Shown piece by piece: positions 1-33,663 of a DNA stretch of 64,000 nucleotides. The stretch covers positions 3,888,831 through 3,952,830 of the forward strand of contig CM082578.2 in the NCBI GenBank assembly GCA_040954595.2, read 5' to 3'. The position numbers and the translations under genes were made by a program. The notes under the pieces are model-generated. The model did not search any database, had not been told where the DNA came from, and was given only the letters and a program-made list of their open reading frames with translations. Position 1 is the stretch's first letter; each line of letters begins with the position of its first letter. This stretch comes from Balanoglossus misakiensis (taxonomy: Eukaryota; Animalia; Hemichordata).

Positions 1-95
1 CCCGACAATGCTGCTTGCAGCTTTAATTAGGGCCCAAGCCAAGCCAGGCTTGGGCCCTATTGGTTTCGTTGGTATTTTTCAGTCTTTCTTTCTTT

Positions 96-1577
96 AGGGC
101 CCAAGCGCAAGCAAGCGCTTGGGCCCTATTGGTTTCGTTGGGGTTTTTCTTTCTTTCTTTCTTTCTTTATTCTCCTGTCCATTTTTTATCGCTCTAGATC
201 TCAGACACCGCTGCAGGTTCAGTTCTCAAACTTGCTACAGTGGTCAAGGTCAATGAGTAGTCGTGCATTGAACCCATGAATTTTTAATTTGTCACGTGAC
301 ATGGCGGCCATATTGGATTTTCTGAAAAAATGCAAATCTCAGATCTCAGAAACTACAAGTCAGATTTACTTCAGATTTGGCGTGCTGGTAGTGTACCTTC
401 TGCCCATTATTTTTGTAATTGGATATTTTGCTGTCAATGTTGCAGTTTTTTTGCTACAGTTGTTTTTCTGAAATCTGGTCAAGATTTCAAAAATCTTCTT
501 CTCCAGAACCGGCGATAACCGAGTCACGCGGTTTGGGGTATGTGGTCACCTAACTGAGGTCTATCAAGTTTGCGAAGATCATTGTGATTGGTCGAAGATT
601 ATGGCGGCCATATTGGATTTCCGAAAAACTATAGTAAAACTCCAAAAATCTTCTTCTCCAGAACGGGCGATAATCGAGTCACAAGATTCGGGGAGTATGG
701 TCACTACACTGATGTCTATCAAGTTTGCAAAGAGCATTGTGATTGGTCGAAGATTATGGCGGCCATATTGGAATTTGTAAAAAGCATCGAAAAATTGAAA
801 TTCCTTTTTCTAGTCTAAAAATTGATAGCATACAAATTCTTTTTATGGATATCAATCGTCAGGTGACTAAGATATGTTACAATTTTTTGGCGATTTTTCA
901 CATGACCTTTGACCTACTTATCACGCGTTATTATTTCTGCATATCTAATTCCAGGCTAACCTATAGGGCTAGACATTTGGTTTTTGATGCTTGTGGATTA
1001 GTGTGTGATCAAAATATTTTGCTACTTTCCATGACACCTTTGACCTCTGCTTACCTCATTAATTATGTGCATAGCTAATTACAGGCGAACCAATAGAGCT
1101 AGAGCTTTGGTTTTTGTTGAACATGGACCAGTATGGGTTCAACATTTTTTGCCCAAATGTTGGGTGACCTCTGGTGACTTTTGACCTACTTTCACATATC
1201 TCAACATCCAGAGCAGATACAGCCTTGGCATTTGGCAGGATGGGACCTAAATGTAAAGCCAAATTTTTGGGTCACCTGTGACACCTGCTGACCTCATTAA
1301 ATATGCACATACCTAATTACAAGCGAACCAAAAGAGCTAGAGTTTTGGTTTTTGTTGGACATGGCCCAGCAAGGGTCAAATTTTTTGCCCAAATGTTGGG
1401 TGACCTCAGGTGACCTTTGACCTACTTTACTCTATTTCAGCAGCAAAAATACATAAGTCCTTGTTATGTCATGAGATAATACATGCGATAGAAAATTCTG
1501 TTTCTTCTCATTCATACTGTGCATATATAATTCAAGATCAGCGCTTGGGCCCGACAATGCTGCTTGCAGCTTTAATT
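96..1577 (+). mobile_element. Non-autonomous Helentron derivative (HINE-like), family A
   Basis: Left hairpin 96-127, non-coding body, right end gcgcttgggcccgacaatgctgcttgcagctttaatt at 1541-1577. Confidence 0.8.
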
Positions 1578-1607
1578 CTGTCTTTCCTTCTTTCTTCTTT
1601 CTTTCTT

Positions 1608-1816
1608 AGGGCCCAAGCGCATACCAGCGCTTGGGCCCTATTGGTTTCGTTGGGGTTTTTCTGTCTTTCCTTCTTTCTTTAGGGCCCAAGCGCAAGCCAG
1701 CGCTTGGGCCCTATTGGTTTCGTTGGGGTTTTTTAGGGCCCAAGCCCAGCAGGCTTGGGCCCTATTGGTATTACTGGGGTTTTTAGGGCCCAAGCGCGCG
1801 CAAGCGCTTGGGCCCT
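1608..1816 (+). repeat. Stack of four left-end hairpins
   Basis: agggcccaagc-N-gcttgggccct at 1608, 1681, 1735 and 1785, each followed by attggt...tgg and a T-run; loops atacca, aagcca, cagca, gcgcaa. Confidence 0.9.
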
Positions 1817-3255
1817 ATTGGTTTCGTTGGAATTTTTCTTTCTTTATTCTCCTGTCAATTCTTCGGCCAACTAAATCTCTGAAACTACTGCAGGTACACC
1901 GCTCAAACTTACTACAGTGGTCAAGGTCAATGAGTAGATGTGCAGTGGCTCGTGAATATTTAATTAGTCACGTGACCAGGCGGCCATATTGGATTTTCTG
2001 AAAAAATGTAAATGACTTCTTCTCAAAAACTACAAGGCAAATCAAGTTCAAATTTGGTACATAGTACACATGGCCTCTGCCCAACAAAGTTTGATAATAA
2101 AATCTCGAGCGGTCACGTGACTTTGGCCGCCATATTGGATTTTCGAAAAATCCAACTAAAACTTCAAAAATCTTCTTCTCAAGAACCGGCGATAACCGAG
2201 TCGCGGGATTTGGGGTATGTGGTCACCTAACTGATGTCTATCAAGTTTGATAAGAAGCATTGTGATTGGTCGAAGATTATGGCGGCCATATTGGATTTTC
2301 GAAAAACCATAGTAAAACTGCAAAAATCTTCTTCTCCAGAACGGGCAATAACTGAGTCGCAAGATTCGGGGAGTATGGTCACTACACTGATGTCTATCCA
2401 GTTTGCAAAGAGCATTGTGATTGGTCGAAGATTATGGCGGCCATATTGGATTTTGTAAAAAGCAGTGAAAACTTGAAATTCCTTTTCCTAGTCTAAAAAT
2501 TGATAGCATACAAATTTTTTTCATGGATATCAATCGTCATATGACTAAAATATGTTACAAATTTTTGGCGATTTTTCACATGACCTTTGACCTACTTTTC
2601 ACACGTTATTATTTCTGCATATCTATTTCCAGGCTAACCTATAGGGCTAGACGTTTGGTTTTTGATGCATGTGGATTAGTGTGTGATCAAAATATTTTGC
2701 TACTTTTCATGACCCCTTTGACCTCTGTTGACCTCATTAATTATGTGCATCGCTAATTACAGGCGAACCAATAAAGCTAGTGGTTTGGTTTTTGTTGGAA
2801 ATGGACCAGAATGGGGTCAAATTTTTTTGCTCAAATGTTGCATGACCTCTGGTGACCTTTGACCTACTTTCGCATATCTTAGCATCCAGAGCAGATACAG
2901 CCTTGGCATTTGGCAGGATGGGACCAAAATGTAAAGCCACATTTTTGGGTCACCTGTGACACCTGCTGACCTCATTAAATATGCACATACCTAATTACAG
3001 ACGAACCAATAGAGCTAGAGTTTTGGTTTTTGTTGGACATGGACAAATATGGGTCAAAAAAATTTCCCAAAATTTAGATGACCTCAGGTGCCCTTTTACC
3101 TACTTTACTCTATTTCTGCAGCAAAAATACATACGTCCTTGTTATGTCATGAGATAAAAAACATGATAGAGCATTCTGTTTCTTCTCATTCATACTGTGC
3201 ATATGTAATTCAAGATCAGCGCTTGGGCCCGACAATGCTGCTTGCAGCTTTAATT
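1785..3255 (+). mobile_element. Non-autonomous Helentron derivative, family A variant
   Basis: Left hairpin 1785-1816, right end 3219-3255. Confidence 0.8.
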
Positions 3256-6200
3256 CTTCTACTTCTTCTTCTTCTTCTGTCGTTTTCTTTGGCGAGGTAG
3301 ATCTGGAAAACTGCTAAACCTACCAATTTCAAACTTGGCACAATGGTGCAGGCCAATGAGAGCTAGTGCAGTACCCTTGTGAATGTTTAATTAGTCACGT
3401 GACTTGATGACCATATATGGGCAAAATTTTCAAATCGGCCTTATTTGCATATGAATGGAGATATCACAATTCTTTTAGCAACTTTTGCGGACCATGTGGT
3501 CAGTGTCCTACATGCCAAATGTCAAGGCCATTGGCCATGCCAATTTTGAGAAGAAGATTTTTAAGTATTATTTTTCATATTTTTTGACCAAGCCATGGGC
3601 GTATACTTTCCATAGTAAAGCTATGACCACATATTATTTTGGATAAATATGCATACATATCTCAAAATCTGTTAGGCCAATCATCTCCAACTTTGGTGTG
3701 CAGCTAGCCTAGCATTGGTCAATAATTTTAAGCGAAAAAAAATAATATGAAAAATCGACCGATTTTTTTATATTAATTTTTTTATTAAATTTATACCTTT
3801 ACTTATACCTCTATAGTTAAGCTATGTCCATGTCTTATTTTGGAATTCTGGTCTGTGCAATGGTCCTGTAAAGTGACTGTCTTTTGGCCAGTGAGCACAA
3901 TGAGACCAAAATAAAAGGCGAAATTTTGGGCCCACCTGTAACACCTGCTTAACTCATTAATTATGTGCATACCTAATTCCAGGCTAACTAATAGGGCCAG
4001 AGGTTTTGTTGTTGTTGGACTTGGGCCAGTAAAGGGTTAAACATTCCTGCCAAAATTTGGGGTGACCTCAGGTGACCTTTGACCTACTTTCCTATATCTT
4101 GGCATCCAGAGCAGGTACAGACTTGGCGTTTGGAGGGTTGGGACTAAAATTGAAAAGCCAAAATTGCAGGTCACCTGTGACACCTGCTTATCTCATTAAT
4201 TATGTGCATACCTAATTCCAGGCTAACCAATAGGGCTAGAGGTTAGATTTTTGTTGAACATGGACAAGTATGGGGTCAAAATTTCTTGCCCAAATTTTGG
4301 GTGACCTCAGGTGACCTTTGACCTACTTTACCATATCTTGGCATCCAGAGCAGGTACAGACTTGGCGTTTGGAGGGTTGGGACTAAAATTGAAAAGGCAA
4401 AATTGGGGGTCACCTGTGACACCTGCCTACCTCATTAATTATGTGCATAACTAATTCCAGGCTAACCAATAGGGCTATAGGTTTGGTTTTTGATGAACAT
4501 GGACCAGTATAGGGTCAAAATTTCTCGCCCAAATTTTGCATGACCTCAGGTGACCTTTGACCTACTTTACCATATCTTGGCACCCAGGGCAGGTACAGAC
4601 TTGGCGTTTGGAGGGTTGGGACTAAACTTGAAAAGCCAAAATTGGGGGTCACCTGTGACACCTGCATATCTCATTAATTATGTGCATACCTAATTCCAGG
4701 CTAACCAATAGGGCTATAGGTTTGGTTTTTGTTGAACATGGACTAGTATAGGATCAAAATTTCTTGCCCAAATTTTTGCATGACCTCAGGTGACCTTTGA
4801 CCTAATTTTCCATATCTTGGCATCCAGAGCAAATATGCTTATTGCTATGTTGCTATGTGCTATGTTGGCTTGGGCCCGCTATTGCTGCTTGCAGCTATAT
4901 TTTTTTTTCTTCTTGTGTAGTTTTTTCGGCCAGCTAGATCTGGAAAACTGCTAAACCTACCAATTTCAAACTTGGCACAATGGTGCAGGCCAATGAGAGC
5001 TAGTGCAGTACCCTTGTGAATGTTTAATTAGTCACGTGACCTGATGACCATATATGGGCAAAATTTTCAAATCGGCCTTATTTGCATATGAATGGAGATA
5101 TCAAAATTCTTTTAGCAACTTTTGTGGACCATATGGCCAGGGTTCTACATGCCAAACGTCAAGGCCATAGGCCATGTCAATTTTGAGTAGAAGATTTTTA
5201 AGTATTATTTTTCATATTTTTCGCCCAAGCCATGGGCCTATACTTTACATAGTACAGCTATGGCCACATATTATTTTGGATAAATATGCATACATATCTC
5301 AAAATCTGTTAGGCCGATCATCTCCAACTTTGGTGTGCAGCTAGCTTAGCATTTGTCAATAATTTTAAGCGAAAAAAAATTCTATGAAAAATCGACCGAT
5401 TTTTTTATATTAATTTTTGTTATTAAATTTATACCTTTACTTATACCTCTATGGTTAAGCTATGTCCATGTCTTATTGTGGAATTCTGGTCTGTGCAATA
5501 GTCCTGTACAGTGACTATCTATTGGCCAGTGAGCACAATGGCACCAAAATAAAAGGCAAAATTTTAGGCTCACCTGTAACACCTGCTTAACTCATTAATT
5601 ATGTGCATACCTAATTATGGGCTAACTAAGAGGGCTAGAGGTTTCATTCTTGTGGGATATGGACCGATATAGGGTCAAAATTTCTTGCCCAAATTTTGGG
5701 TGACCTCAGGTGACCTTTGACCTACTTTCCTATATCTCGGCATCCAGAGCAGGTACAGACTTGGCGTTTGGAGGGTTGGGACTAAAATTAAAAAGCCAAA
5801 ATGGGGGTCACCTGTGACACCTGTATATCTCATTAATTATGTGCATACCTAATTCCAGGCTAACCAATAGGGCTATAGGTTTGGTTTTTGTTGAACATGG
5901 ACCAGTATAGGTTCAAAATTTCTTGCCCAAATTTTGCTTGACCTTAGGTGACCTTTGACCTACTTTACCAGATCTTGGCATCCAGAGCAGGTACAGACTT
6001 GGCGTTTGGAGGGTTGGGACTAAAATTAAAAAGCCAAAATGGGGGTCACCTGTGACACCTGTATATCTCATTAATTATGTGCATACCTAATTCCAGGCTA
6101 ACCAATAGGGCTATAGGTTTGGTTTTTGTTGAACATGGACCAGTATAGGTTCAAAATTTCTTGCCCAAATTTTGCTTGACCTTAGGTGACCTTTGACCTA

Positions 6201-6544
6201 CATTACCAGATCTTGGCATCCAGAGCAGGTACAGACTTGGCGTTTGGAGGGTTGGGACTTAAATTGAAAAGCCAAAATTGGGGATCACCTGTGACACCTG
6301 CCTACCTCAATAATTATGTGCATACCTAATTCCAGGCTAACCAATAGGGCTATAGGTTTGGTTTTTGTTGAACATGGACCAGTATAGGGTCAAAATTTCT
6401 TGCCCAAATTTTGCATGAACTCAGTTGACCTTTGACCTACTTTACCATATCTTGGCATCCAGAGTAGATATGCTTATTGCTATGTTGCTATGTGCTATGT
6501 GCTATGTTGGCTTGGGCCCGCTATTGCTGCTTGCAGCTATATTT
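3256..6544 (+). mobile_element. Two bodies of a third non-autonomous subfamily ('C', ~1.64 kb each) with ~239-bp internal tandem repeats
   Basis: Both start ...tagatctggaaaactgctaaacctacc and end ggcttgggcccgctattgctgcttgcagctatattt (4867-4900, 6509-6544). cacctgtgacacc recurs at ~4172/4411/4650 and ~5809/6047/6287. Confidence 0.75.
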
Positions 6545-9455
6545 AGGGCCCAAGCGCATACCAGCGCTTGGGCCCTATTGGTTTCTTTGGGGTTTTTCTT
6601 TCTTTCTTTCTTTCTTTCTTTCTTTATTCTTCTGTCATTTCTTTGTCGCTCTAGATCTCAGACACCACTGCAGGTACAGTTCTCAAACTTGCTACAGTGG
6701 TCAAGGTCAATGAGTAGTCGTGCATTGAACCCATGAATTTTTAATTAGTCACATGACCTGGCGGCCATCTTGGATTTTCTGAAAAAATGCAAATCTCAGA
6801 TCTCAGAAACTACAAGTCAGATCGACTTCAAATTTGGCGTGCAGGTAGACTACCTTCTGTCAAACATTTTTGTAATTGGAAATTATGCTGTCAATGTTGC
6901 AGTTTTTTTGCTACAATTTTTTTTCTGAAATCTGGCTTAAATTTCAAAAATCTTCTTCTCCAGAACCGGTGATAACCGAGACATGGGGTTTGGGGTATGT
7001 GGTCACCTAACTGATGTCTATCAAGTTTGCGAAGATCATTGTGATTGGTCGAAGATTATGGCGGCCATATTGGATTTTCGAAAAACCCTAGTAAAATTTC
7101 AAAAATCTTCTTCTCGAGAACCGGCAATAACCGAGTCACAAGATTTTGTGTGTGTGGTCATTCAACAGATGTCTATCAAGTTTGCGAAGAGGAATGTGAT
7201 TGGTCGAAGATTATGGCGGCCATATTGGATTTTGTGAAAAACGATTAAAAAGTAAAAATTCCCTTTCTAGCCTAAAAATTGATAGCACAGAAATTCTTTT
7301 TATGGATATGAATCATCATATAACAAGAATAAGCTATAAATATTTTGGTAATTTTGGCAATGACCTTTGACCTACTTTTGACGCATTAATTTTCTGCATA
7401 TCTAATTCCAGGCTAACCAATAGGGCTATAAGTTTGGTTTTTGATGTATGTGGATTTGTATGTGATCAAAAAATTTTGGTACTTTTCATGACCCCTTTGA
7501 CCTCTGCTGACCTCATTAAATATGCGCATACCTAATTACAGATGAACCAATAGACCTAGAGGTTTTGTTTTTGTTGGACAGGACAAGTATAGGGTCAAAA
7601 TTTTTTACCCAAATTTTGGGTGACCTCTGGTGACCTTTGACCTAATTTCGCAAATCTCAGCATCCACAGCAGATACAGCCTTGGCGTTTGGAGGTATGGG
7701 GCCATAATGAAAAGCCAAAGTTTTGGGTCACCTGTGACACCTGCTTAACTCATTATTTATGTGCATACCTAATTCCGGGCTAACCAAAAGGGTTAGAGGT
7801 CTGGTTTTTGTTGGACATGGACCACTATGGGTCAAAATTTTCTGCCCAAACTGTGGGTGACTTCTGACCTACTTAACACTATATCAGCACTAAACATAGA
7901 TATAATCTTGATATTTCATGGGATAAAACACAGCATTATGTTTCTACTCATTAATTATGTGCATATCTAATAATCAGATCAGATAATAGAGCTTGGGCCC
8001 GGACAATGCTGCTTGCAGCTTTAATCTTTCTTTCTTCTTTCTTTATTCTTGTGTCAATTCTTTGTCGCTCTAGATCTCAGACACCACTGCAGGTACACTT
8101 CTGAAACTTGCTACAGTGGTCAAGGTCAATGAGTAGTCGTGCATTGAACCCTTGAATTTCTAATTAGTCACATGACCTGGCAGCCATCTTGGATTTTCTG
8201 AAAATATGCAAATCTCAGATCTCAGAAACTACAAGTCAGATCGACTTCAAATTTGGCGTGCAGGTAGACTACCTTCTGCTTATCATTTTTGTAATTGGAA
8301 ATTATGCTGAAAAAGTTGCAGTTTTTTTGCTACAATTTTTTTTCTGAAATCTGGCTTAAATTTCAAAAATCTTCTTCTCCAGAACCGGTGATAACCGAGA
8401 CACTGGGTTTGGGGTATGTGGTCACCAAACTGAGGTCTATCAAGTTTGCGAAGATCATTGTGATTGGTCGAAGATTATGGCGGCCATATTGGATTTTCGA
8501 AAAACCCTAGTAAAATTTCAAAAATCTTCTTCTCAAGAACCAGCGATAACCGAGTCACAAGATTTGGTGTGTGTGGTCATTAAACAGATGTCTATCAAGT
8601 TTGCGAAGGGGAATGTGATTGGTCGAAGATTATGGCGGCCATATTGGATTTTGTGAAAAACGATTAAAAAGTAAAAATTCCTTTTCTAGCCTAAAAATTG
8701 ATAGCACAGAAATTCTTTTTATTGATATGAATCATCATATGACAAGAATAAGCTATAAATATTTTGGTAATTTTGGCAATGACCTTTGACCTACTTTTGA
8801 CGCATCATTTTTCTGCATATCTAATTCCAGGCTAACCAATAGGGCTATAAGTTTGGTTTTTGATGTATGTGGATTTGCATGTGATCAAAAAATTTTGCTA
8901 CTTTTCATGACCCCTTTGACCTCTGGTGACCTCATTAAATATGCGCATACCTAATTAATGATGAACCAATAGACCTAGAGGTTTTGTTTTTGTTATACAT
9001 AGACCAGTATGGGGTCAAACTATTTTGCCCAAATGTTGGGTGACCTCGGGTGACCTTTGACCTACTTTTGCATATCTCGACATCCACAGCAGATACAGCC
9101 TTGGCGTTTGGAGGTATGGGGCCATAATGAAAAGCCAAAGTTTTGGGTCACCTGTGACACCTGCTTAACTCATTATTTATGTGCATACCTAATTCCGGGC
9201 TAACCAAAAGGGCTAGAGGTCTGGTTTTTGTTGGACATGGACCACTATGGGTCAAAATTTTCTGCCCAAATTGTGGGTGACATCTGGGTGACCTTTGACC
9301 TACTTAACACTATGTCAACACCAAACATGGATATAACCTTGATATTTCATGGGGTAAAACAGCATTATGTTTCTACTCATTAATTATGTGCATATCTAAT
9401 AATCAGATCAGATAATAGAGCTTGGGCCCGGACAATGCTGCTTGCAGCTTTAATT
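6545..9455 (+). mobile_element. Two family-A non-autonomous bodies (~1.43-1.48 kb) behind one left end
   Basis: Left hairpin 6545-6576; right ends 7991-8025 and 9420-9455. Confidence 0.8.
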
Positions 9456-10899
9456 AGGGCCCAAGCGCATACCAGCGCTTGGGCCCTATTGGTTTCGTTG
9501 GGGTTTTTTAGGGCCCAAGCGCATACCAGCGCTTGGGCCCTATTGGTTTCGTTGGGGTTTTTCTGTCTTTCTTCTTTCTTTATTCTTCTGTCATTTCTTT
9601 GTCGCTCTAGATCTCAGACACCGCTGCAGGTACACTTCTCAAACTTGCTACAGTGGTCAAGGTCAATGGGTAGTTGTGCATTGAACTCTTGAATTTTTAA
9701 TTAGTCACGTGACATGGCGGCCATATTGGATTTTCTGAAAAAATGCAAATCTCAGATCTCAGAAACTACAAGTCAGATTTATTTCAGATTTGGTGTGCTG
9801 GTAGTGTACCTTCTGCCCATCATTTTTGTAATTGGATATTTTGCTGTCAATGTTGCAGTTTTTTTGCTACAGTTGTTTTTCTGAAATCTGGTCAAAATTT
9901 CAAAAATCTTCTTCTCCAGAACCGGCGATAACCGAGTCACGCCCTTTGGGGTATGTGGTCACCAAACTGAGGTCTATCAAGTTTGCGAAGGTGAATGTGA
10001 TTGGTCGAAGATTATGGCGGCCATATTGGATTTTCGAAAAACCCTAGTAAAATTTCAAAAATCTTCTTCTCAAGAACCGGAGATAACTGAGTCACAAGAT
10101 TTGGTGTGTGTGGTCATTAAACAGATGTCTATCAAGTTTGCGAAGGTGAATGTGATTGGTCGAAGATTATGGCGGCCATATTGGATTTTGTGAAAAACGA
10201 TAAAAAAGTAAAAATTCCCTTTCTAGCCTAAAAATTGATAGCACAGAAATTCTTTTTATGGATATGAATCATCATATGCCAAGAATAAGCTATGAATATT
10301 TTGGTAATTTTGGCAATGACCTTTGACCTACATTTGACGCACCATTTTTCTGCATATCTAATTCCAGGCTAACCAATAGGGCTATAAGTTTCGTTTTTGA
10401 TGCATGAAGATTAGTGTGTGATCAAAATATTTTGCTACTTTTCATGACCCCATTGTCCCCTGCTGACCTCATTAAATATGCAGATACCTAATTACAGGCG
10501 AACCATTAGAGCTAGAGGTTTGGATTTTGTTGGACATGGACCAATATGGGGTCAAAAATCTTTGCCCAAATGTTGGGTGACCTTAGGTGACCTTTGACCT
10601 ACTTTCTTATATCTTGGCATCCACTGCAGGTACAGACTTAGCATTTGGAGGGATGGAACACCTGACCGAGTCTCACACATTACCCCATTAATTATGCCCA
10701 TTATAATTCCAAGCGAACCAATAGGGCTAGAGGTGGGGGTTTTTTTTGTTGAACATGGACCAATATGTGGTCAACAGTTTTTGCCCAAATTTTGGATGAC
10801 ATCAGGTGACCTTTAATCTTCTTTACCATATCTCGGTACCAACAGCAGCTACAGCCTTGTCCTTTGGAGGGATGGGATCAAAATGAAAAGCCAAATTTT

Positions 10900-14496: not shown

Positions 14497-14602
14497 CACA
14501 TACATACATACATACATACACACATACATACATACATACATACATACATACATACATACATGCCTGCATGCATGACACAGACAGACAGACAGACAGATAG
14601 AC
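14497..14602. repeat. (CATA)n/(CAGA)n microsatellite
   Basis: Directly visible. Confidence 0.95.
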
Positions 14603-23200: not shown

Positions 23201-24426
23201 TGTTTTGAACACTCATTGTCTGTCACATCCATGTATACACCAGTTTCATATTCTATAGGGACAACATCATTGCAATCAATGTGTGTACAATGACAGGTTT
23301 CCAACTGTGGTGTCTTCACACACTCTACAACTTCATAATGGTTTCTATTGCGATGGTTCAGGTATATACCAACACCTCTATCAACATTATTTTTATTGAT
23401 TAAATTACAAGAATGTTTCCACCAACTATCAAAACTGTACACAAAAATATTTACATTGAAGAGATTTGTAGTGGCAAGGATTTCCGTTTCTGTAGCCCAT
23501 GTGCCTAGATGATCCATTCTGGACTTCTCAATATAATCAGCAACTGATGTATATCCATCTAACCTTACCCAGCCTGAATATACTTCCTCATTGGCTTTCA
23601 AGTGATTCACAATGGCCGTTCGAATAACTCCGTGATTTCGCTCAGTCCCACTTATACAATATGACAAGGACCTAAAAAAACAGTTACCATCACCAATTAT
23701 TGACTTGTAATTACATGGGTCTCCAATTGTAACACTTCCAAGTTTATTTAAAACATCAATTTTATTTTTATCTACAATATCAAATTTGCAACACAGCTGT
23801 TCACATACATCAGAAGTAAGTGGAGAGAATGAATAAACACTGTCCTCTGTTCCACTACCAATATATAGGTCTTCCGATGAATCATTGTCAAGACTATGTT
23901 GTTGCAGAATTTCATTACTTCCTTCAGTCTTATCAACACTTTGATTTTCGGTCTCAAATATCTCATTGTTGACTTTAGTACTTTCATTTTCTCTGTCACT
24001 TTTTCTGATTTTATCCATATTCCTGTTTTTAGAGAGGGCAGGCCCCTCTTTGAATTCATTTCTATTCCTGTTTTTAGAGAGGGCAGGCCCCTCTTTGTAT
24101 TCATTTCTATTCCTGTTTTTAGAGAGGGCAGGCCCCTCTTTGAATTCATTATTATTCCTGTTTTTAGAGAGGGCAGGCCCCTCTTTGTATTCATTTCTAT
24201 TCCTGTTTTTAGAGAGGGCAGGCCCCTCTTTGAATTCATTTCTATTCCTGTTTTTAGAGAGGGCAGGCCCCTCTTTGTATTCATTTCTATTCCTGTTTTT
24301 AGAGAGGGCAGGCCCCTCTTTGTGCTCTATAGCTATCCTGTTTTTCAAGAGGACAGGATCCTCAGACACAACAGCATCTTCATTCTTCTGACTCCTCTTC
24401 TTCCTCCAGTATCTACTGCGTGGCAT
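17092..24426 (-). CDS. Helentron/Helitron2 RepHel transposase, family A (~2444 aa): OTU-like protease, Cys/His region, HUH-Y2 Rep, PIF1-like SF1B helicase, C-terminal AP-type endonuclease
   Basis: Uninterrupted ORF. OTU-like IIGDGNCFFRSLS...WATETEI...NHYEVV; CVCSVCHR...CHTCH; Rep WFCSFSAAD, VEFQQRGSPHTHCLFW, YACVVYIVSYISK; helicase GGAGTGKS, IIDEISMV, GDFYQLPPV, QFPLKLAWACTVHKVQGLT, GQAYVALSRV; endonuclease LTETWL, GGVGVY, MGDFN, IDHVYV. Start placed at the ATG (24426) after the acceptor ttgctttgttccag, matching MPRSR of the second ORF. Confidence 0.96.
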   Translation of the reverse strand: MPRSRYWRKKRSQKNEDAVVSEDPVLLKNRIAIEHKEGPALSKNRNRNEYKEGPALSKNRNRNEFKEGPALSKNRNRNEYKEGPALSKNRNNNEFKEGPALSKNRNRNEYKEGPALSKNRNRNEFKEGPALSKNRNMDKIRKSDRENESTKVNNEIFETENQSVDKTEGSNEILQQHSLDNDSSEDLYIGSGTEDSVYSFSPLTSDVCEQLCCKFDIVDKNKIDVLNKLGSVTIGDPCNYKSIIGDGNCFFRSLSYCISGTERNHGVIRTAIVNHLKANEEVYSGWVRLDGYTSVADYIEKSRMDHLGTWATETEILATTNLFNVNIFVYSFDSWWKHSCNLINKNNVDRGVGIYLNHRNRNHYEVVECVKTPQLETCHCTHIDCNDVVPIEYETGVYMDVTDNECSKQIGLKQEFHLDEVFATHEELPCLAPVRGEKRGRAMGERLKKKLRREKYESERGKLNQLNVPSSLKSSKAAKQYERYQTNCEYRDNIKSVRRKRYHEDVLYRENKKRRLAGRYDHDLVFREVQKTVCAEQCLAKYEKVPLYREHKKSESAAQCVDKYKKDQMFREQKKRQCVDKYNKDLEFREQKKRQSAAVFADKFHNDQKFREHKKSQNAAQFLDKYNRDEEFQNRTKKKCLERYQQDHVYKQTVLERRRTERKVTKIEKENIQRVIIDFRNQISVGPNCVCSVCHRRLFRKQVLVCKMDNYISKGGLCEMNANKCITQDYIHNCTELCIIDCPLKSSAASKLWICHTCHSKLLRAEMPVQAAANNLDVKPIPNELKCLNSLEQHLIALHIPFMKMMALPRGGQNGVHGPVVCVPSNIEKATSILPRGELEDQMIKVKLKRKLSYKGCYQYQFVNKGHIQNALEYLQKNNKWYNDVKFNLTWENTLEKTEEKSDGESNGNTEEKLLDTEGNDVASDTEDGNEHDRDTNGIFMDTCFQPVDIGQDILDYHFDDIACVAPGEDNKPVRVLMEKFNEAKCFPVIFPTGSPTFHDDREVKITIGRYLQSRLMNASNRFARSTDYIFYAQYRSELDQVVSNVSIALRKGTANACGKKVTSDVLTDGDSLREILKCDEGYKFLKPVRGTPPYWQSTQKDLFAMIRQLGIPTWFCSFSAADLRWKEVIETILREEGDTRNAEDLDWSEKCGILRRNPVTAARMFDNRFHCFLNEVIMSPASPIGKIKDYFYRVEFQQRGSPHTHCLFWVENAPKVDKDSDEDVVEFVDRYVTCEMPSIEEDEVLHEIVKTVQKHSSRHSKSCKKKGTTCRFNFPRPPSNKTFICHPSVSIDTGIEVTDDDQCKDDQMTTSLESEFENSLPEFDDTVLGQKKARQILERVWTCLCDKEKQIDTIDDLFNAVGISQEMFEQANAILAKKTSVVLKREPSDVWVNPYNANLLLCWNANMDIQFVVDAYACVVYIVSYISKAEREMGLLLEHAQKEANKEGNMDAKSAMKELGGVYLHNREISAQEAVYRVCGLKLKQSSRKVQFIPTGENQIKMSLPLAAIQKKMKGDDLDEEEIWMNSIVDRYKNRPNGVDFDNMCLAAFCSEYRVVSKSEMKNVSNEKRHSPIVKLKNDVGYMQKRSQSDGAVVRYARFSVTKCPEKHYGSILQLFLPYRTESQLKPSGFESFEDFYCLGAVKCGSASLEKVKMIVDANKALFETEADAIDAAGQFLDENGHLEDAWAQICPENELERLECIEEGKKCSGDDPVDDDDIPDLVQKPKGDDYHLEISNSIRKYEVEAMCRSLNKKQAEVFYTVRKWCLDKSNGNNPEPFCLFVTGGAGTGKSHLIKAIYHEAKRILARAMPDIDGISIALTAPTGVAAFNIQGTTLHHIFSIAVDSKLPYQPLREEKLNTLRCKFGHLQILIIDEISMVDKKLLYYVHGRLRQIKQSSAESPFGNVCVIAVGDFYQLPPVKASPLCIDRESVNLWKDNFSIIELTEIMRQKDCAFAEALNRVRVHKKGDTMNAGDVAMFQKCVTGETSEAMHIFATNAEVNSCNVEMLHSQCSDPVCIEAEDFSRNPTSGRLEKKEGHHVKVYRTTLPKTLTLAVGARVQLTHNIDVADGLVNGVFGTVCHIAVKPNVKFPAAIYVVFDNEKVGQGLRKKKPITISNLPVNSTLIEPQEMSVASNGGIRRQFPLKLAWACTVHKVQGLTVEKAVVNLKKMFAPGQAYVALSRVTSLDGLIINDFNKSSIYCNEKVQEALETMPKFLPKCTQREHSNYTCSFVLHNVEGLVNHIKDICNDSEYLEADFICLTETWLSEKGKHCNLQLSGFEFNHQPRSQSYNQFDTNTSSLQLQQRGGVGVYSKLCSDFEILHLGVCNLECISFYVAKINVTVAVVYRPPSYKAEVFISSLVCLVKAMDKYPGGKLIMGDFNEDILSRSSLVKFMKDHGFRQSVSEPTTEANTLIDHVYVKGIKNVTVNVVPKYFSFHEAISIKI
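24015..24325 (-). repeat. 45-bp coding minisatellite, 7 copies of KEGPALSKNRNRNE(Y/F)
   Basis: agagagggcaggcccctcttt at 24031, 24076, 24121, 24166, 24211, 24256 and 24301. Confidence 0.95.
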
Positions 24427-24699
24427 CTGGAACAAAGCAAATATACTGTCTAGTTAGGTTTTTACTTTCACCACCAGACTTCAGATAACCTTCTCATCAA
24501 ATCACATCACTAGTGATTATAACCAGTAAAAAGTAGTGGAACTTTTAACAGACAGAAGTGATTTATAGAAACTAAGTCCGAACAAAGTTGTAATTCAACA
24601 GCCACACATAATACACACATATCCCCATGCTTGTATACAAATAGACACATATACACACAAACTATCACAGAGACACTTTTTTTCTGCTGGAAAACAGGA

Positions 24700-26820
24700 T
24701 AAGGCTTAAATCCTGACCCCTGTATGACCTAACATTCTGGCATTCACATTAGAATGTGCTCAGACAAATCTCAGATCTGAGTGAAATTTTCTTTAAAAAT
24801 CATTTCCACTATTTAGCAATATCAAGTCCAAGTACGATAGGCATACATGAATGAATTTGCACAGACATACACAAATACACGGACACCCCAACATCTACTG
24901 TGTACAACCAAATAAGGCTTCAGACCTGACCCTTAATGACCCGACATTTTCCCATTTACGTTGCAATCAACCAAATCTGAATAAAATTTCACTTCAAAAT
25001 CATTTCCACTATTTAGCAATATCAAGTCTAAGTACGATAGGCATACATGTATGAATTTGCACAGACATACACAAATACACGGACACCCCAACATCCACCG
25101 TGTACAACCAAATAAGGCTTCAGACCTGACCCTGAATGACCCGGACATTTTCCCATTTACGTTGCAATGTACTCAGCCAAATCTGAATAAAATTTCACTT
25201 CAAAATCATTTCCACTATTTAGCAATATTAAGTCTAAGTACGATAGGCATACATGTATGAATTTGCACAGACATACACAAATACACGGACACCCCAACAT
25301 CCACCGTGTACAACCAAATAAGGCTTCAGACCTGACCCTGAATGACCCGACATTTTCCCATTTACGCTGCAATGTACTCAGCCAAATCTGAATAAAATTT
25401 CACTTCAAAATCATTTCCACTATTTAGCAATTTCAAGTCCAAGTACGATAGGCATACATGTATGAATTTGCATAGACATAAACAAATACACGGATACCCC
25501 AACATCAACTGTGTACAACCAAATAAGGCTTCAGACCTGACCCTGAATGACCCGACATTTTCCCATTTACGTTGCAATGTACTCAGACAAATGTGAATAA
25601 AATTTCACTTCAAAACCATTTCCACCAGTTAGCAATATCAAGTCCAAGTACGATAGGCATACATGTATGAATTTGCACACACATAAACAAATACACGGAC
25701 ACCCCAACATCCACTGTGTACAACCAAATAAGGCTTCAGACCTGACCCTGAATGACCCGACATTTTCCCATTTACGTTGCAATGTACTCAGACAAATTTG
25801 AATAAAATTTCACTTCAAAATCATTTCCACTATTTAGCAATATCAAGTCCAAGTACGATAGGCATACATGTATGAATTTGCACACACATAAACAAATACA
25901 CGGACACCCCAACATCCACTGTGTACAACCAAATAAGGCTTCAGACCTGACCCTGAATGACCCGACATTTTCCCATTTACGTTGCAATGTACTCAGCCAA
26001 ATCTGAATAAAATTTCACTTCAAAACCATTTCCACTATTTAGCAATATCAAGTCCAAGTACGATAGGCATACATGTATGAATTTGCATAGACATAAACAA
26101 ATACACAGACACCCCAACATCAACCGTGTACAACCAAATAAGGCTTCAGACCTGACCCTGAATGACCCGACATTTTCCCATTTACGTTGCAATGTACTCA
26201 GACAAATTTGAATAAAATTTCACTTCAAAACCATTTCTACCAGTTAGCAATATCAAGTCCAAGTACGATAGGCATACATGTATGAATTTGCACACACATA
26301 AACAAATACACGGACACCCCAACATCCACCATGTACAATCAAATAAGGCTTCAGACCTGACCCTGAATGACCCGACATTTTCCCATTTACGTTGCAATGT
26401 ACTCAGACAAATGTGAATAAAATTTCACTTCAAAATCATTTCCACTATTTAGCAATATCAAGTCCAAGTACGATAGGCATACATGTATGAATTTGCATAG
26501 ACATAAACAAATACACGGACACCCCAACATCAACCGTGTACAACCAAATAAGGCTTCAGACCTGACCCTGAATGACCCGACATTTTCCCATTTACGTTGC
26601 AATGTACTCAGCCAAATCTGAATAAAATTTCACTTCAAAACCATTTCCACCAGTTAGCAATATCAAGTCCAAGTACGATAGGCATACATGTATGAATTTG
26701 CACACACATAAACAAATACACGGACACCCCAACATCCACCGTGTACAATCAAATAAGGCTTCAGACCTGACCCTGAATGACCCGACATTTTCTCATTTTC
26801 ATTATGTACTCATACAAATC
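24700..26820. repeat. 205-bp tandem satellite, ~10 copies, upstream of the transposase-A main exon
   Basis: Unit containing aaataaggcttcagacctgaccctgaatgacccgac; the 205 period is echoed by the recurring 71-aa ORFs (25157, 25362, 25567...). Edge units are degenerate. Confidence 0.95.
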
Positions 26821-27297
26821 ACAAACGATTGTTATAGACCTGATTTACACTTAACAATTTAATATACAAGTTCAATAACAAGGCAGGGATATCAAGAAAC
26901 ATACATCATACCAATGTTTTATTGAAGCCACTATTGTAAGAAATGGCACTATCCAATGGTCTTAACACCACATAGCACAACGATTGTTCTGCACATACAA
27001 GTCCCTTCCTTTCTGATGTATTCAATAAACACCATTTCTATGAACTATTACAATATGTTTTTTCTTCCGTCACCCCTGAATAACAAATTCAAAGAAATGG
27101 GCTAGTGCTTTTACATGTTAACAGACGGTGCATGGAAGTGGACAATCATCATATCTGATATTAAACCATAGTGTGACTGATAGTAGAACTAAGCAATTCC
27201 TCCGCAAATGATTTAAAAGACTAATTCACATTTGACACAATGCACACCTGAGTGTGTTAATCTATGATACTATGCACTGTTGGGCACCAACACTCAC

Positions 27298-27323
27298 CTT
27301 GAAAACTCTTTGGTAGCCAAAAT
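27298..27323 (-). other. Predicted 26-nt micro-exon of the transposase-A transcript
   Basis: Minus strand: tattattttcttgacag|attttggctaccaaagagttttcaag|gtgagt; same length as and similar to 40005-40030. Confidence 0.6.
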
Positions 27324-30300
27324 CTGTCAAGAAAATAATAAATAATAATTAATAACTAATTAACTATAAATGTATATTTAAACTAGTACATGAAAATATA
27401 CAATTGCCTACAAACAGGATAACAATTAACAATGAATTCACTGCCAAGCTTTTGATATTCAGAAATTCATATCTTGATCACAGTTTCCATACAAATGGCA
27501 CATACAGGTTACCACAGATTGATAACATAACTTGTCTTGCCCACAACATAGTTTCATGGCATCAAAATATGTTTACAAGTCAACTGTTCTTTTCATGCTC
27601 CTGCCAGATTCCATTGTCTATGTTTTGGCACACCTGTCACCACCAGAAAGCATACACACTAAAGACAGTGGTCACCAAAAATATTTGGCCAATTCTCCGC
27701 TTGTCCCCACATTTTTACAAACAACTAAAACGTCAAATAATCCAGCAATGTTTCTGTTTTGTACTCACACAGATTGTTCAATATTTGAAGCAAAATTCCT
27801 TTCAATTATCAAAAAACAAATCGATTTAACTGATAAAAATTACAATGATAACCCCTGGGCTTTTGATCACATAAACATACAATATTCACAGAAATAAATG
27901 CAGTATTTACGTATTTGGAAAAGCCAATCCATAAATATCACACAGTTTATTTTTTTTTACAAATACACATCCCAGAAATAATACTTTACCAACGCTTGTA
28001 CGTAACATACGCATGACACACCGATCGCCCGAATTCAACACTTCCGGTCACGAGATTCGCTTGCCTAAACCCTTTCCTGTCTAAATAATCATTTGTACAT
28101 TGACTGCAAAAAGAAGCTTATCTCGTAATTTCAACTTGAATGGAACGCACTAGAAACTCTGATTTACCCAGCCTCTAATTGTTCTATTTAATCCAGCAAA
28201 CTCCACCATCTCAACATATATAACATTTGCCAAAACATGCATGCTTACGGTATCATGGATTCTTTACATACAGTATTAAAGCAATCTCGACACGTTACGA
28301 TAGCCGCCATATTGGAATTCGCTCGAGACGAAAATACAAAACATCTTACAAAACTGCCATCGTCTCACAAACAAACAAAATCACACTACCATTGGTTAAA
28401 CAACAACTTCATAACCAACATCACCAAGTATTATACGTTCAAACCACCGATTCTCTCATTCGAACCACATTTAAAAACTGCATGTAATTGTATACGTGTT
28501 ACTCACCGGATTCAGGTCAACGCCTCTGCTGGAGTCAGATTCGTTTTCGGATTCAAGTGCGTAGGATGAAGTTGCTTTCAGATTCATACCCCAAAGACGT
28601 GTTGGGTTAACACTCTGTTTATACAGCTCAATATATTGGTATATCTATACTACATCCTCTTCACAGTTAACGAATGTAATATACAGATCTGTTCACTTAA
28701 TTAAAGATATGTTTATAGCCAAACAAATACCTCTGTCAAAACTTTCACTGATTCAGATGAAAATTTTCAACTATTTACAACCAATCCACACATCACTTGT
28801 GACTAATTAACCAATCACATAATGTGTCCATTCTAACTTTGTATTTCGCCCTCAACTACTGCATGTGTAATGATGCATGTGGATTAGTGTGTAATCATAA
28901 TAGTTTGTAGTCTACCTTTTACCCATCATTTTTGTAATTGGACATTATGCTGTCCATGTTCCAGTTTTTTTGCCACAATTTTTACTAAGTTTGCGTAGAA
29001 CATTGTGATTGGTCGAAGATTATGGCGGCCATATTGGATTTTCGAAAAACCATAGTAAAACTCTAACAATCTTCTCCAGAACTGGAGATAACTGAGTCGC
29101 AAGATTCGGGGAGTATGGTCATTACACTGATGTCTATCAGGTTTGCAAAGAGCATTGTGATTGGTCGAAAAATATGGCGGCCATATTGGAGTTTGTAAAA
29201 AGCAGTGAAAAATTGAAATTCCTTTTTCTAGTCTAAACATTGATAGCATGCAAATTCTTTTTATGGATATCAATCGTCATATGACTAAAATATGTTACAA
29301 ATTTTTGGCGATTTTTCACCTGACCTTTGACCTACTTTTCACACATTATTATTTCTGCATATCTATTTCCAGGCTAACCTATAGGGATGCATATATAGCT
29401 CATTCTACCTGTTCTAAATGCACCAGAGTTCTGATTTTTGTGCACATTGGTATCACCCCTGCCAGGACCTACCCCAAATATTTTGGTAATTTTGGCAATG
29501 ATTTTTGACCGTGACATGGCGGCCATATTGGATTTTCTGAAAAAATGCAAATCTCAGATCTCAGAAACTACAAGTCAGATTTACTTCAGATTTGGTGTGC
29601 TGGTAGTTTACCTTCTGCCCATCATTTTTGTAATTGGATATTTTGCTGTCAATGTTGCAGTTTTTTTGCTACAGTTGTTTTCTGAAATCTGGCTTAAATT
29701 TCAAAAATCTTCTTCTCCAGAACCGGTGATAACCGAGACACGGGGTTTGGGGTATGTGGTGACCAAACTGAGGTCTATCAAGTTTGCGAAGATCATTGTG
29801 ATTGGTCGAAGATTATGGCGGCCATATTGGATTTTCGAAAAACCCTAGTAAAATTTCAAAAATCTTCTTCTCAAGAACCAGCGATAACTGAGTCACAAGA
29901 TTTGGTGTGTGTGGTCATTAAACAGATGTCTATCAAGTTTGCGAAGGTGAATGTGATTGGTCGAAGATTATGGCGGCCATATTGGATTTTGTGAAAAACG
30001 ATTAAAAAGTAAAAATTCCCTTTCTAGCCTAAAAATTGATAGCACAGAAATTCTTTTTATGGATATGAATCATCATATGCCAAGAATAAGCTATAAATAT
30101 TTTGGTAATTTTGGCAATGACCTTTGACCTACTTTTGACGCATCATTTTTCTGCATATCTAATTCCAGGCTAACCAATAGGGCTATAAGTTTGGTTTTTG
30201 ATGTATGTGGATTTGTATGCGATCAAAAATTTTGCTACTTTTCATGACCCCTTTGACCTCTGCTGACCTCATTAAATATGCACATACCTAATTAATGATG

Positions 30301-30792
30301 AACCAATAGACCTAGATGTTTTGTTTTTGTTGGACAGGACAAGAATGGGGTCAAAATTTTTTACCCAAATGTTGGGTGACCTCTGGTGACCTTTGACCTA
30401 CTTTCGCATATCTCAGCATCCACAGCAGATACAGCCTTGGCGTTTTGAGGTATGGGGCCATAATGAAAAGCCAAAGTTTTGGGTCACCTGTGACACCTGC
30501 TTTACTCATTATTTATGTGCATACCTAATTCCAGGCTAAACAAAAGGGCTAGAGGTGTGGTTTTTGTTGGACATGGACCACTATAGGTCAAAATATTCTG
30601 CCCAAATTGTGGGTGACCCCTGGGTGACCTTTGACCTACTTAACACTGTATCAGCACCAAACATAGATATAACCTTGATATTTCATGGGATAAAACACAG
30701 CATTATGTTTCTACTCATTAATTATGTGCATATCTAATAATCTGATCAGATAATAGAGCTTGGGCCCGGACAATGCTGCTTGCAGCTTTAAT

Positions 30793-33663
30793 CTGTCTTT
30801 CCTTCTTTCTTTCTTCTTTCTTTATTCTTCTGTCAATTCTTTGTCGCTCTAGATCTCAGACACCACTGCAGGTACAGTTCTCAAACTTGCTACAGTGGTC
30901 AAGGTCAATGAGGAGTCGTGCATTGAACCCATGAATTTTTAATTAGTCACATGACCTGGCGGCCATCTTGGATTTTCTGAAAAAATGCAAATCTCAGATC
31001 TCAGAAACTACAAGTCAGATCGACTTCAAATTTGGCGTGCAGGTAGACTACCTTCTGTCAAACATTTTTGTAATTGGAAATTATGCTGTCAATGTTGCAG
31101 TTTTTTTGCTACAATTTTTTTTCTGAAATCTGGCTTAAATTTCAAAAATCTTCTTCTCCAGAACCGGTGATAACCGAGACACGGGGTTTGGGGTATGTGG
31201 TCACCTAACTGATGTCTATCAAGTTTGCGAAGATCATTGTGATTGGTCGAAGATTATGGCGGCCATATTGGATTTTCGAAAAACCCTAGTAAAATGTCAA
31301 AAATCTTCTTCTCGAGAACCGGGGATAACCGAGCCACAAGATTTTGTGTGTGTGGTCATTCAACAGATGTCTATCAAGTTTGCGAAGAGGAATGTGATTG
31401 GTCGAAGATTATGGCGGCCATATTGGATTTTGTGAAAAACGATTAAAAAGTAAAAATTCCCTTTCTAGCCTAAAAATTGATAGCACAGAAATTCTTTTTA
31501 TGGATATGAATCATCATATGACAAGAATAAGCTATAAATATTTTGGTAATTTTGGCAATGACCTTTGACCTACTTTTGACGAATCATTTTTCTGCATATC
31601 TAATTCCAGGCTAACCAATAGGGCTATAAGTTTGTTTTATGATGTATGTGGATTTGTATGTGATCAAAAAATTTTGCTACTTTTCATGACCCCTTTGACC
31701 TCTGGTGACCTCATTAAATATGCGCTTACCTAATTAATGATAAACCAATAGACCTAGAGGTTTTGTTTTTGTTATACATGGACCAGTATGGGGTCAAAAT
31801 ATTTTGCCCAAATGTTGGGTGACCTCGGGTGACCTTTGACCTACTTTTGCATATCTCGACATCCACAGCAGATACAGCCTTGGTGTTTGGAGGTATGGGG
31901 CCATAATGAAAAGCCAAAGTTTTGGGTCACCTGTGACACCTGCTTAACTCATTATTTATGTGCATACCTAATTCCGGGCTAACCAAAAGGGCTAGAGGTC
32001 TGGTTTTTGTTGGACATGGACGACTATGGGTCAAAATTTTCTGCCAAAATTATGGGTGACCTCTGGGTGACCTTTGACCTACTTAACACTATATCAACAC
32101 CAAACATAGATATAACCTTGATATTTCATGGAATAAAACACAGCATTATGTTTCTACTCATTAATTATGTGCATATCTAATAATCAGATCAGATAATAGA
32201 GCTTGGGCCCGGACAATGCTGCTTGCAGCTTTAATCTTTCTTTCTTTCTTTATTCTTCTGTCAATTCTTTGTCGCTCTAGATCTCAGACACCGCTGCAGG
32301 TACACTTCTGAAACTTGCTACAGTGGTCAAGGTCAATGAGTAGTCGTGCATTGAACCCTTGAATTTTTAATTAGTCACGTGACCTGGCGGCCATATTGGA
32401 TTTTCTGAAAAAATGCAAATCTCAGATCTCAGAAACTACACGTCAGATCTACTTCAAATTTGGTGTGCTGGTAGTCTACCTTCTACCCATCATTTTTGTA
32501 ATTGGATATTTTGCTGTAAATGTTGCAGTTTTTTTGCTACAATTTTTTTTCTGAAATCTGGCTTAAATTTCAAAAATCTTCTTCTCCAGAACCGGTGATA
32601 ACCGAGTCACGCGGTTTGGGGTATGTGGTCACCTAACTGATGTCTATCAAGTTTGCGAAGATCATTGTGATTGGTCGAAGATTATGGCGGCCATATTGGA
32701 TTTTCGAAAAACCATAGTAAAACTTCAAAAATCTTCTTCTCAAGAACGGGCAATAACCGAGTCACAAGATTTGGTGTGTGTGGTCATTAAACAGATGTCT
32801 ATCAAGTTTGCGAAGGGGAATGTGATTGGTCGAAGATTATGGCGGCCATATTGGATTTTGTGAAAAACGATTAAAAAGTAAAAATTCCTTTTCTAGCCTA
32901 AAAATTGATAGCACAGAAATACTTTTTATAGATATGAATCATCATATGACAAGAATAAGCTATAAATATTTTGGTAATTTTGGCAATGACCTTTGACCTA
33001 CTTTTGACGAATCATTTTTCTGCATATCTAATTCCAGGCTAACCAATAGGGCTATAAGTTTGTTTTTTGATGTATGTGGATTTGTATGTGATCAAAAAAT
33101 TTTGCTACTTTTCATGACCCCTTTGACCTCTGGTGACCTCATTAAATATGCGCTTACCTAATTAATGATGAACCAATAGACCTAGAGGTTTTGTTTTTGT
33201 TATACATAGACCAGTATGGGGTCAAAATATTTTGCCCAAATGTTGGGTGACCTCGGGTGACCTTTGACCTACTTTTGCATATCTCGACATCCACAGCAGA
33301 TACAGCCTTGGTGTTTGGAGGTATGGGGCCATAATGAAAAGCCAAAGTTTTGGGTCACCTGTGACACCTGCTTAACTCATTATTTATGTGCATACCTAAT
33401 TCCGGGCTAACCAAAAGGGCTAGAGGTCTGGTTTTTGTTGGACATGGACGACTATGGGTCAAAATTTTCTGCCAAAATTATGGGTGACCTCTGGGTGACC
33501 TTTGACCTACTTAACACTATATCAACACCAAACATAGATATAACCTTGATATTTCATGGAATAAAACACAGCATTATGTTTCTACTCATTAATTATATGC
33601 ATATCTAATAATCAGATCAGATAATAGAGCTTGGGCCCGGACAATGCTGCTTGCAGCTTTAAT
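30793..33663 (+). mobile_element. Two family-A non-autonomous bodies with right ends but no adjacent left ends
   Basis: Right ends at 32201-32235 and 33629-33663; each body starts directly in the CTTT tract. Confidence 0.8.

What the first reader, a model, noticed from the sequence alone, without database searches (positions are those of the whole stretch)
29..33663. Self-targeting 'Matryoshka' Helentron array whose ends nest like balanced parentheses
Seen: left-end hairpins at 29, 96, 1608, 1681, 1735, 1785, 6545, 9456, 9510 and right ends at 1541, 3219, 4867, 6509, 7991, 9420, 30758, 32201, 33629. The order LLR LLLL RRR L RR LL RRR is 9:9 and never closes more than is open. Most left ends sit in the T/CTTT tract roughly 20-60 nt after another left hairpin, and after most right ends the sequence resumes in that tract. 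Known: Helentrons insert at TT without TSDs. Inference: the apparent 1.43-kb satellite was built by repeated same-orientation insertion into a landing pad carried by the element itself, a self-directed safe harbour. I do not know whether this has been described.
Basis: partly seen in the sequence, partly recalled or inferred. Interest (0 to 1): 0.85.

Follow-up and report, generated by a model that had tools for sequence, protein, structure and literature searches.

The report
Transposons nested behind their own hairpins
This 64-kb stretch is a Russian-doll pile of rolling-circle transposons, two of them with intact enzyme genes, in which nearly every copy sits in or beside a T-rich run just behind another copy's front hairpin, likely because new copies keep landing there, which would let repeat arrays grow by self-insertion rather than by duplication.

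Summary
The ends and their order are real, and the nest is larger than reported. It fills the window: 15 left ends, 17 right ends, at least three subfamilies and two Helentrons with intact OTU-Rep-helicase-endonuclease genes. Ten left ends lie in another copy's post-hairpin T-rich tract, four abut a right end exactly, and one lies elsewhere, in a T-rich repeat. A subfamily with its own terminal repeats brackets ordinary copies twice, which tandem duplication does not explain. Neighbouring bodies are 73-97% identical, with different junctions. The 9:9 balance is not a real closure: an open body follows, and three pairings fail, each as if a left end was lost. In public contigs from other animals, 11 of 59 related right ends sit at a sister's left end or tract; most others are in T-rich host DNA, so targeting is not exclusive. 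Enrichment beats TT and short T-rich nulls but not a long-pyrimidine null. Self-insertion near the 5' end was already proposed for Fusarium elements. This scan noted such nests on seven other pieces of this genome and in one other genome (unchecked notes). Verdict: new variant of a known kind.

The parts
1..26 (+). Right end cut by the window edge, joined exactly to the next left end
27..93 (+). Left hairpin and tract prefix; its own body is not cleanly assignable
94..1575 (+). Intact short element (a-type right end), inserted 35 nt behind the hairpin of L27
1576..1782 (+). Tract remnant and stacked left ends L1606, L1679, L1733 (L1733 has a divergent tail)
1783..3253 (+). Intact short element (a-type right end), innermost of the stack
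3254..6542 (+). Two headless c-type bodies with c-type right ends (239-bp internal repeats), 93.5% alike; only one c-like left end is present
6543..8024 (+). Intact short b-type element, head-to-tail on R6542
8025..9453 (+). Headless b-type body resuming in the tract
9454..9507 (+). Left end of the host of the first long element (54-bp unit identical to the next)
9508..30791 (+). First long (putatively autonomous) Helentron, 21.3 kb; right end is a short-element body lacking its first ~215 nt
17092..24453 (-). ORF1, 2453 codons stop to stop: OTU, DUF6570, Rep (HUH, Y2), PIF1 helicase, AP endonuclease; reads from right end to left end
30792..33662 (+). Two headless b-type bodies resuming in the tract, 97.3% alike
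33663..36255 (+). Open body of a relative of the first long element; interrupted at a (TTA)n repeat by the minus-strand nest
36256..55147 (-). Second long Helentron of the primed subfamily (own terminal repeats), 17.4 kb after removing its insert
40962..48263 (+). ORF2, 2433 codons stop to stop, same domain order, 64% identical to ORF1; also reads from right end to left end
53627..55091 (-). Intact short a-type element inserted 19 nt behind the primed hairpin
55148..62541 (-). Primed short element (left end 62541, body and right end 56367-55148) holding four b-type bodies and three ordinary left ends; one left end short
62542..64000 (+). Continuation of the interrupted body (matches 12446-13966 at 87%)

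Best explanation
The window is a nest of Helentron transposons and their short non-coding derivatives, likely built by new copies inserting again and again, in the same orientation, into the T-rich tract that each copy carries about 20-40 bases behind its left hairpin. Shown: the end structures, two intact transposase ORFs, 14 of 15 left ends in such a tract or exactly against a right end, and a T after all 17 right ends (a pyrimidine tract after 12, a (TTA)n repeat after 1, a left end after 4). Inferred: the transposase joins the right end to the start of a T-rich run without a target duplication; this splits the host's hairpin from its body (stacked heads, headless bodies), brings in a fresh tract, and leaves the run intact behind the new right end, so a later insertion there gives the exact right-left junction. 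Inferred, least certain: binding of the transposase to resident left ends adds to the T-run preference and sets the usual 19-20 nt distance. Inferred: slippage between 50-70 bp stacked heads, composite transposition or unequal exchange later removed some heads, so the bracket record is incomplete.
For: Primed left and right ends, whose terminal repeats differ from the ordinary ones and match each other, are outermost in both minus-strand nests (chance 1 in 315 for random labels), and both restore to the same tract start. The one divergent head of the plus stack meets the first divergent body. Neighbouring bodies are 73-97% identical, none identical, with different tract offsets. Removing the 26-kb minus nest restores a continuous homolog of the first long element. 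Landing-zone share of possible targets in six intact short elements is 6% for TT, 5.5% for TTTT-T/C, 13% for T-rich 4-mers, 7-21% for a profile of 6-15 nt learned from 46 host sites in other animals; P of 10 or more of 11 in the zone is 1e-6 or less in each. Six of 8 adjacent heads are 19-20 nt behind the hairpin across three subfamilies, including the primed site that is not a TTTT site. In public contigs of three accession series, 11 of 59 distinct right ends with the same terminal motif sit at a sister's left end or tract, and none matched a body interior of the small library built from those loci. Right-end-to-tract and head-to-head junction variants occur in contigs of one independent-format sample.
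Against: Under a null of pure-pyrimidine 10-mers the zone holds 67% of targets (P 0.075 for 10 of 11; 0.26 for 6 of 7), and under the 20-nt learned profile 56% (P 0.016 and 0.11), so sequence composition alone may suffice. The events are not all independent: B8/B9 (97.3%) and B3/B4 (93.5%) are neighbours and each other's closest relatives. Three pairings fail. Six of the 11 public cases are exact right-left junctions, which concatemers also give. 47 of 59 public right ends are in host DNA. The fixed distance coincides with the start of the T-rich tract in every subfamily, so distance and composition are confounded. No genome was held, and the empty-site test was uninformative.
Confidence: 0.5

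Rival explanations
1. Same nest by repeated insertion, but as a pure by-product of target chemistry: the enzyme seeks long T-rich or pyrimidine runs, and the element's own tract is simply the best such run in a repeat-filled region; resident hairpins play no part.
For: Long-pyrimidine and 20-nt profile nulls remove most of the significance. The one non-tract insertion is in a (TTA)n repeat. Host sites in public loci are T-rich: 45 of 46 start with T, mean T share 0.66 over 10 nt against 0.32 background. T-rich targets are published (PMC4067079, PMC3627910, passages).
Against: Shorter profiles leave strong enrichment. 11 of 59 public right ends at sister ends seems far above the share of T-rich sites that sister tracts could hold (inference; copy numbers not measured). 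The primed site is used twice though it is not a T-run.
Confidence: 0.3
2. One or two chance nestings were multiplied by unequal exchange, slippage and transposition of composite elements, so that few junctions are independent insertions.
For: Heads are mosaic relative to tails; B8/B9 and B3/B4 are closest neighbours; L9454 and L9508 form an identical 54-bp pair; composite elements with extra termini transpose in Fusarium and maize (PMC5148889 section 10, PMC3288121 passages); microsatellite slippage can shift apparent offsets.
Against: Three host subfamilies with different tails carry inserts, and the two primed hosts hold different inserts (a-type and b-type right ends) at the same site. The same junction classes recur in unrelated bodies from other animals.
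Confidence: 0.11
3. The array is made of rolling-circle concatemers or 5'-truncated, one-ended transposition products that stop in the tract.
For: Exact right-left junctions (4 in the window, 6 in public loci) are what circles give; right ends outnumber left ends; 5' truncation with 3' excess is reported for Helitron2 (PMC3627910, passages) and truncated tandem arrays for plants (as reviewed in PMC12628747, passages).
Against: Concatemers predict near-identical units with one junction; found 73-97% identity and several junctions. They do not give stacks of different heads or primed ends outside ordinary copies.
Confidence: 0.07
4. Mis-assembly of a repeat.
For: Repeat-dense region; no reads spanning the window were seen.
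Against: Copies differ by 3-27%; two 7.3-kb ORFs are intact; junctions fall at exact termini; the same junction classes appear in short-read contigs and in other animals.
Confidence: 0.02

Closest known systems
Helentrons and HINE / DINE-1 elements (Thomas, Vadnagara and Pritham 2014, PMC4067079; passages and section 16 read); oyster Cg_HINE (PMC7492417; passages)
   Same: Sub-terminal inverted repeats, left hairpin, microsatellite after it, central tandem repeats, short 3' palindrome, T-rich target, no clear target duplication, variable T number; OTU-Rep-helicase-endonuclease ORF; reversed ORF known in one Drosophila element.
   Different: The passages read do not describe the element's own microsatellite as an insertion site, nor nested stacks.
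Helitron2 / HLE2 (Bao and Jurka 2013, PMC3627910; HELIANO, PMC11417382; passages)
   Same: Asymmetric terminal repeats, hairpins at both ends, DUF6570, TTTT-T/C type target, reversed ORF in some members; Xenopus HelenXT233 has two left ends in direct repeat.
   Different: Doubled left ends are reported without the matching bodies and right ends.
FoHeli elements of Fusarium oxysporum with multiple 5' termini (PMC5148889 sections 10 and 16; PMC13342296 passages)
   Same: Short (31-85 nt) repeated 5' ends, up to five, explained by self-insertion followed by composite transposition.
   Different: There several heads share one 3' end and the nest was hypothetical; here heads, bodies and right ends of several subfamilies survive together and form an array tens of kb long in an animal.
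Tandem transposons by double insertion (McGurk and Barbash 2018, PMC5932611; passages) and Paramecium telomere-targeted Helitrons (PMC13085455; passages)
   Same: A target that survives insertion allows repeated, oriented insertion and can seed satellites.
   Different: There the target is host sequence or a target duplication; here it is carried inside the element.
Maize Helitrons with multiple termini (PMC3288121; passages)
   Same: Nested insertion proposed as the source of extra termini.
   Different: Canonical Helitron1 ends; no fixed landing site described in the passages read.

Membership tests
Helentron / HINE (HLE2) | 5' sub-terminal repeat folded into a hairpin with its inverted partner | tested here: met
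   13-14 bp stems, -16.8 to -20.9 kcal/mol in 4 of 4 left ends folded
Helentron / HINE (HLE2) | 3' sub-terminal repeat complementary to the 5' one, followed by a short palindrome | tested here: met
   All 16 complete right ends; primed ends co-vary
Helentron / HINE (HLE2) | Microsatellite after the left hairpin and central tandem repeats | tested here: met
   (CTTT)n/(CTT)n tract; 155- and 237-239-bp repeats
Helentron / HINE (HLE2) | Rep (HUH, Y2) + PIF1 helicase + AP endonuclease, with DUF6570 and often OTU | tested here: met
   Pfam hits above the curated cut-off for these five families in both ORFs; motifs present (motif patterns recalled)
Helentron / HINE (HLE2) | Insertion in T-rich sequence without target duplication | tested here: inconclusive
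   T follows 17 of 17 right ends; several excisions restore a normal five-T run; one T of ambiguity throughout, and 3 extra bases within a (TTA)n repeat at the one non-tract site; no paralogous empty site seen
Helentron / HINE (HLE2) | Placement in the HLE2 transposase clade | not tested
   No tree built; best hits 64-69% from abalone, acorn worm and hagfish share the domain set
Helitron2 (Bao and Jurka) | Insertion after TTTT or a related T-rich 4-mer | tested here: inconclusive
   8 of 11 non-head-to-tail sites fit in one of two registers; both primed-host sites and the (TTA)n site do not
Satellite by tandem duplication or concatemer | Near-identical neighbours with one junction | tested here: not met
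   12 neighbour pairs 73-97% identical; several junction offsets
Site-specific (exclusive) self-targeting element | Insertions confined to the element's own site | tested here: not met
   47 of 59 related right ends in host DNA; unrelated flanks in contigs of this family
Active transposon | Transposition, circles or expression | not testable with these tools
   Only ORF integrity shown

The most novel reading that the evidence does not exclude
A widespread animal Helentron clade recognises resident left-end hairpins as landing marks and cuts about two helical turns behind them, so that subfamilies pile into one another, satellites grow by insertion, and each array keeps a readable order of transposition.
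Probability: 0.35. Interest if true: 0.75.

Novelty: new variant of a known kind. Interest (0 to 1): 0.52.

Why it matters
How Helentrons choose targets is untested biochemically (PMC4067079 section 16 says so). These nests give an exact, recurring target and a direct test between T-run preference and end recognition. They show the intact intermediate that the Fusarium self-insertion model predicted, offer a route to satellite-like arrays that needs no duplication, give relative ages of subfamilies, and warn that repeat annotation will call such blocks satellites or mis-pair their ends. The same junctions in other animals suggest it is general for this clade.

Tried and rejected
No whole genome was held, so no genome-wide count. 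The left-end pattern found 0 matches in metagenome contigs; the right-end pattern found 0 in viral contigs and 1 in a bacterial MAG, likely host DNA. Laying contigs on 53560-55200 to find the empty primed site failed because the tool skips the microsatellite stretches: no inference. Summed depths are not copy numbers and were not used as such; runs X1 and X2 are one sample and may be the source of the window or a relative (44% of words), so they are not independent support for the locus. Parenthesis balance as a test was rejected (P 0.1, truncated set). A tree of bodies does not give one pairing because heads and tails are mosaic. The idea that the reversed ORFs belong to inner elements in opposite orientation found no inner termini. 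Dropped rows in the public-locus count: of 64 matches, L002 (bacterial chance match, judged by eye) and 4 duplicates (L045, L051, two in L060); the script also dropped L022 and L028 as false duplicates, so the profile used 46 host sites; L022 ends in a repeat at the contig edge and is unclassed. Literature: 8 searches found no paper describing intact Helentron nests at an element-borne site; subscription papers and Repbase reports are not covered, and no supplements were read (Fusarium Table S6 and HELIANO figures may bear on this). Coates et al. 2010 (Helitron-like elements disrupting (GAAA)n microsatellites) was seen only as a title in a reference list; Xiong et al. 2016 only as reviewed.
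Full report
Observation. Each element starts with TT and a 13-14 bp hairpin, then a short tail and a (CTTT)n or (CTT)n tract, a body with 155- and about 239-bp repeats, and ends with the complement of the left repeat, a short palindrome and five A/T bases. Over the whole window there are 15 left and 17 right ends, and a relaxed scan found no more. The 9:9 set is not closed: the window opens with a cut right end, and a further tract and body follow R33629. Random order would pass the bracket test one time in ten.

L9510-R30758 spans 21.3 kb and holds an intact 2453-codon ORF; a second intact 2433-codon ORF lies at 40962-48263. Both encode OTU, DUF6570, Rep, PIF1 helicase and AP endonuclease, keep the expected motifs (patterns recalled), are 64% identical, and read from the right end toward the left hairpin; reversed ORFs are known in some Helitron2/Helentron members (PMC3627910, PMC4067079, passages). 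Best protein hits are 64-69% identical, from abalone, acorn worm and hagfish, then fishes, which points to an animal host but does not name it. A second nest on the minus strand (62541 to 36256) interrupts the open body at a (TTA)n repeat; removing it gives a continuous 3.3-kb match at 83% to the first long element.

Nesting test. The strongest evidence is in the second nest. A primed subfamily has its own left and right repeats, which match each other, and its own body (70-74% to ordinary heads). In both sub-nests the primed head comes first and the primed body and right end last, with ordinary copies between (1 in 315 for random labels). Both primed heads restore to the same tract start though they hold different inserts. 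In the plus stack the one divergent head meets the first divergent body. Strict excision fails three times: a doubled tract start for L27, a subfamily mismatch for L1679, and one surplus body in the first minus nest. Each fits the loss of one head from a run of 50-70 bp stacked heads (inference; alternative pairings); composite transposition or 5' truncation would do as well. Neighbouring bodies are 73-97% identical in 12 pairs; two pairs (B3/B4, B8/B9) are mutual closest relatives and may be duplications, the rest are not. Heads and tails give different trees, so bodies recombine.

Target. Of 15 left ends, 10 are in a tract, 4 abut a right end with no spacer, 1 is elsewhere. All 17 right ends are followed by T: 12 by a pyrimidine tract, 1 by (TTA)n, 4 by a left end. 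One rule covers all: the right end is joined to the start of a T-rich run, and the run survives behind it, so the next insertion makes the exact right-left junction (inference). In six intact short elements the landing zone holds 6% of TT sites, 5.5% of TTTT-T/C sites and 13% of T-rich 4-mer sites on both strands; 10 of 11 hits then has P 1e-8 or less, and a conservative 6 of 7 has P 3e-5 or less. A looser T-rich 10-mer null gives 24% (P 5e-6 and 1e-3). But the zone holds 67% of pure-pyrimidine 10-mers, where the result is not significant. These tests treat events as independent. Six of 8 adjacent heads lie 19-20 nt behind the host hairpin in three subfamilies, which may reflect a ruler or only the conserved start of the tract.

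Outside evidence. The right-end motif matched 60 metagenome loci and one MAG contig; they share only the last 30 bases with this window and look like animal host DNA. After dropping one chance match and four duplicates, 11 of 59 right ends sit at a sister: 6 exact right-left junctions (one degenerate), 1 with three bases between, 3 followed by tract and headless body, 1 inverted inside a tract; two loci also show stacked heads. None matched a body interior in the limited library from those loci. 47 are in T-rich host DNA and 1 is unclear. A profile from 46 host sites gives this window's zone 7%, 11%, 21% and 56% of target weight at widths 6, 10, 15 and 20; only the widest approaches sufficiency. 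Contigs from one sample holding this family show right-end-to-tract junctions at several offsets, a head-to-head junction, and unrelated flanks; the empty-site test was uninformative.

Mechanism. Most likely: repeated oriented insertion into an element-borne T-rich tract (about 0.8 for this in any form), with attraction to resident left ends adding to T-run preference (0.5) or T-run preference alone (0.3). Block amplification of few events (0.11), concatemers (0.07) and mis-assembly (0.02) explain less. A selected 'safe harbour' function is untested.

Known work. The elements meet the structural and coding features of Helentrons/HINEs (PMC4067079, PMC7492417, PMC11417382, PMC3627910; passages). 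Self-insertion near the 5' end was proposed for Fusarium FoHelis with 31-85 nt repeated heads (PMC5148889 sections 10, 16), up to five heads (PMC13342296, passages); doubled heads occur in Xenopus (PMC11417382) and nested origins of extra termini in maize (PMC3288121). Double insertion as a seed of satellites is known (PMC5932611). Passages of PMC11934779, PMC12001565 and PMC8268682 added nothing on nesting. Eight searches found no description of intact multi-subfamily nests at an element-borne site; subscription papers, Repbase and supplements were not seen. Earlier unchecked notes of this scan describe like nests on seven other pieces of this genome and in one other genome; I did not check them, they are not counted as evidence, and they led me to PMC3627910 and to read the maize paper.

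Verdict. Real, larger and less tidy than reported; a new variant of a known kind; interest 0.52.

Noticed in passing
window 62431-62394 (-): This left hairpin has one extra C-G pair present on both arms, a symmetric change that suggests fold-back copying or selection on pairing.
   Followed up: no
window 28860-30791: The right part of the first long element is a patchwork of body fragments followed by a short-element body lacking its first ~215 nt (95% to B8); the long element may have acquired its right end by recombination.
   Followed up: partly
window 24775-26798: 205-bp array of about 10 copies upstream of ORF1.
   Followed up: no
window 14945-15743 and 16201-17009: 0.8-kb direct duplication, 94%, downstream of ORF1.
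   Followed up: no
window 24018-24357, 22551-22753, 41007-41314, 42395-42674: In-frame repeats of 39-66 bp in the N-terminal parts of both transposases, different in each.
   Followed up: no
window 17092-24453 and 40962-48263: Both transposase genes read from the right end toward the left hairpin, so the hairpin lies at the 3' side of the coding strand, as the terminator does in canonical Helitrons (recalled).
   Followed up: partly
L061 2001-2031: A bacterial MAG contig of 62 kb carries this animal-type Helentron right end; likely host DNA in the bin.
   Followed up: no
L001-L060: The last 30 bases of the right end are about 93% conserved between this window and animal-like public contigs whose bodies are unrelated.
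   Followed up: partly
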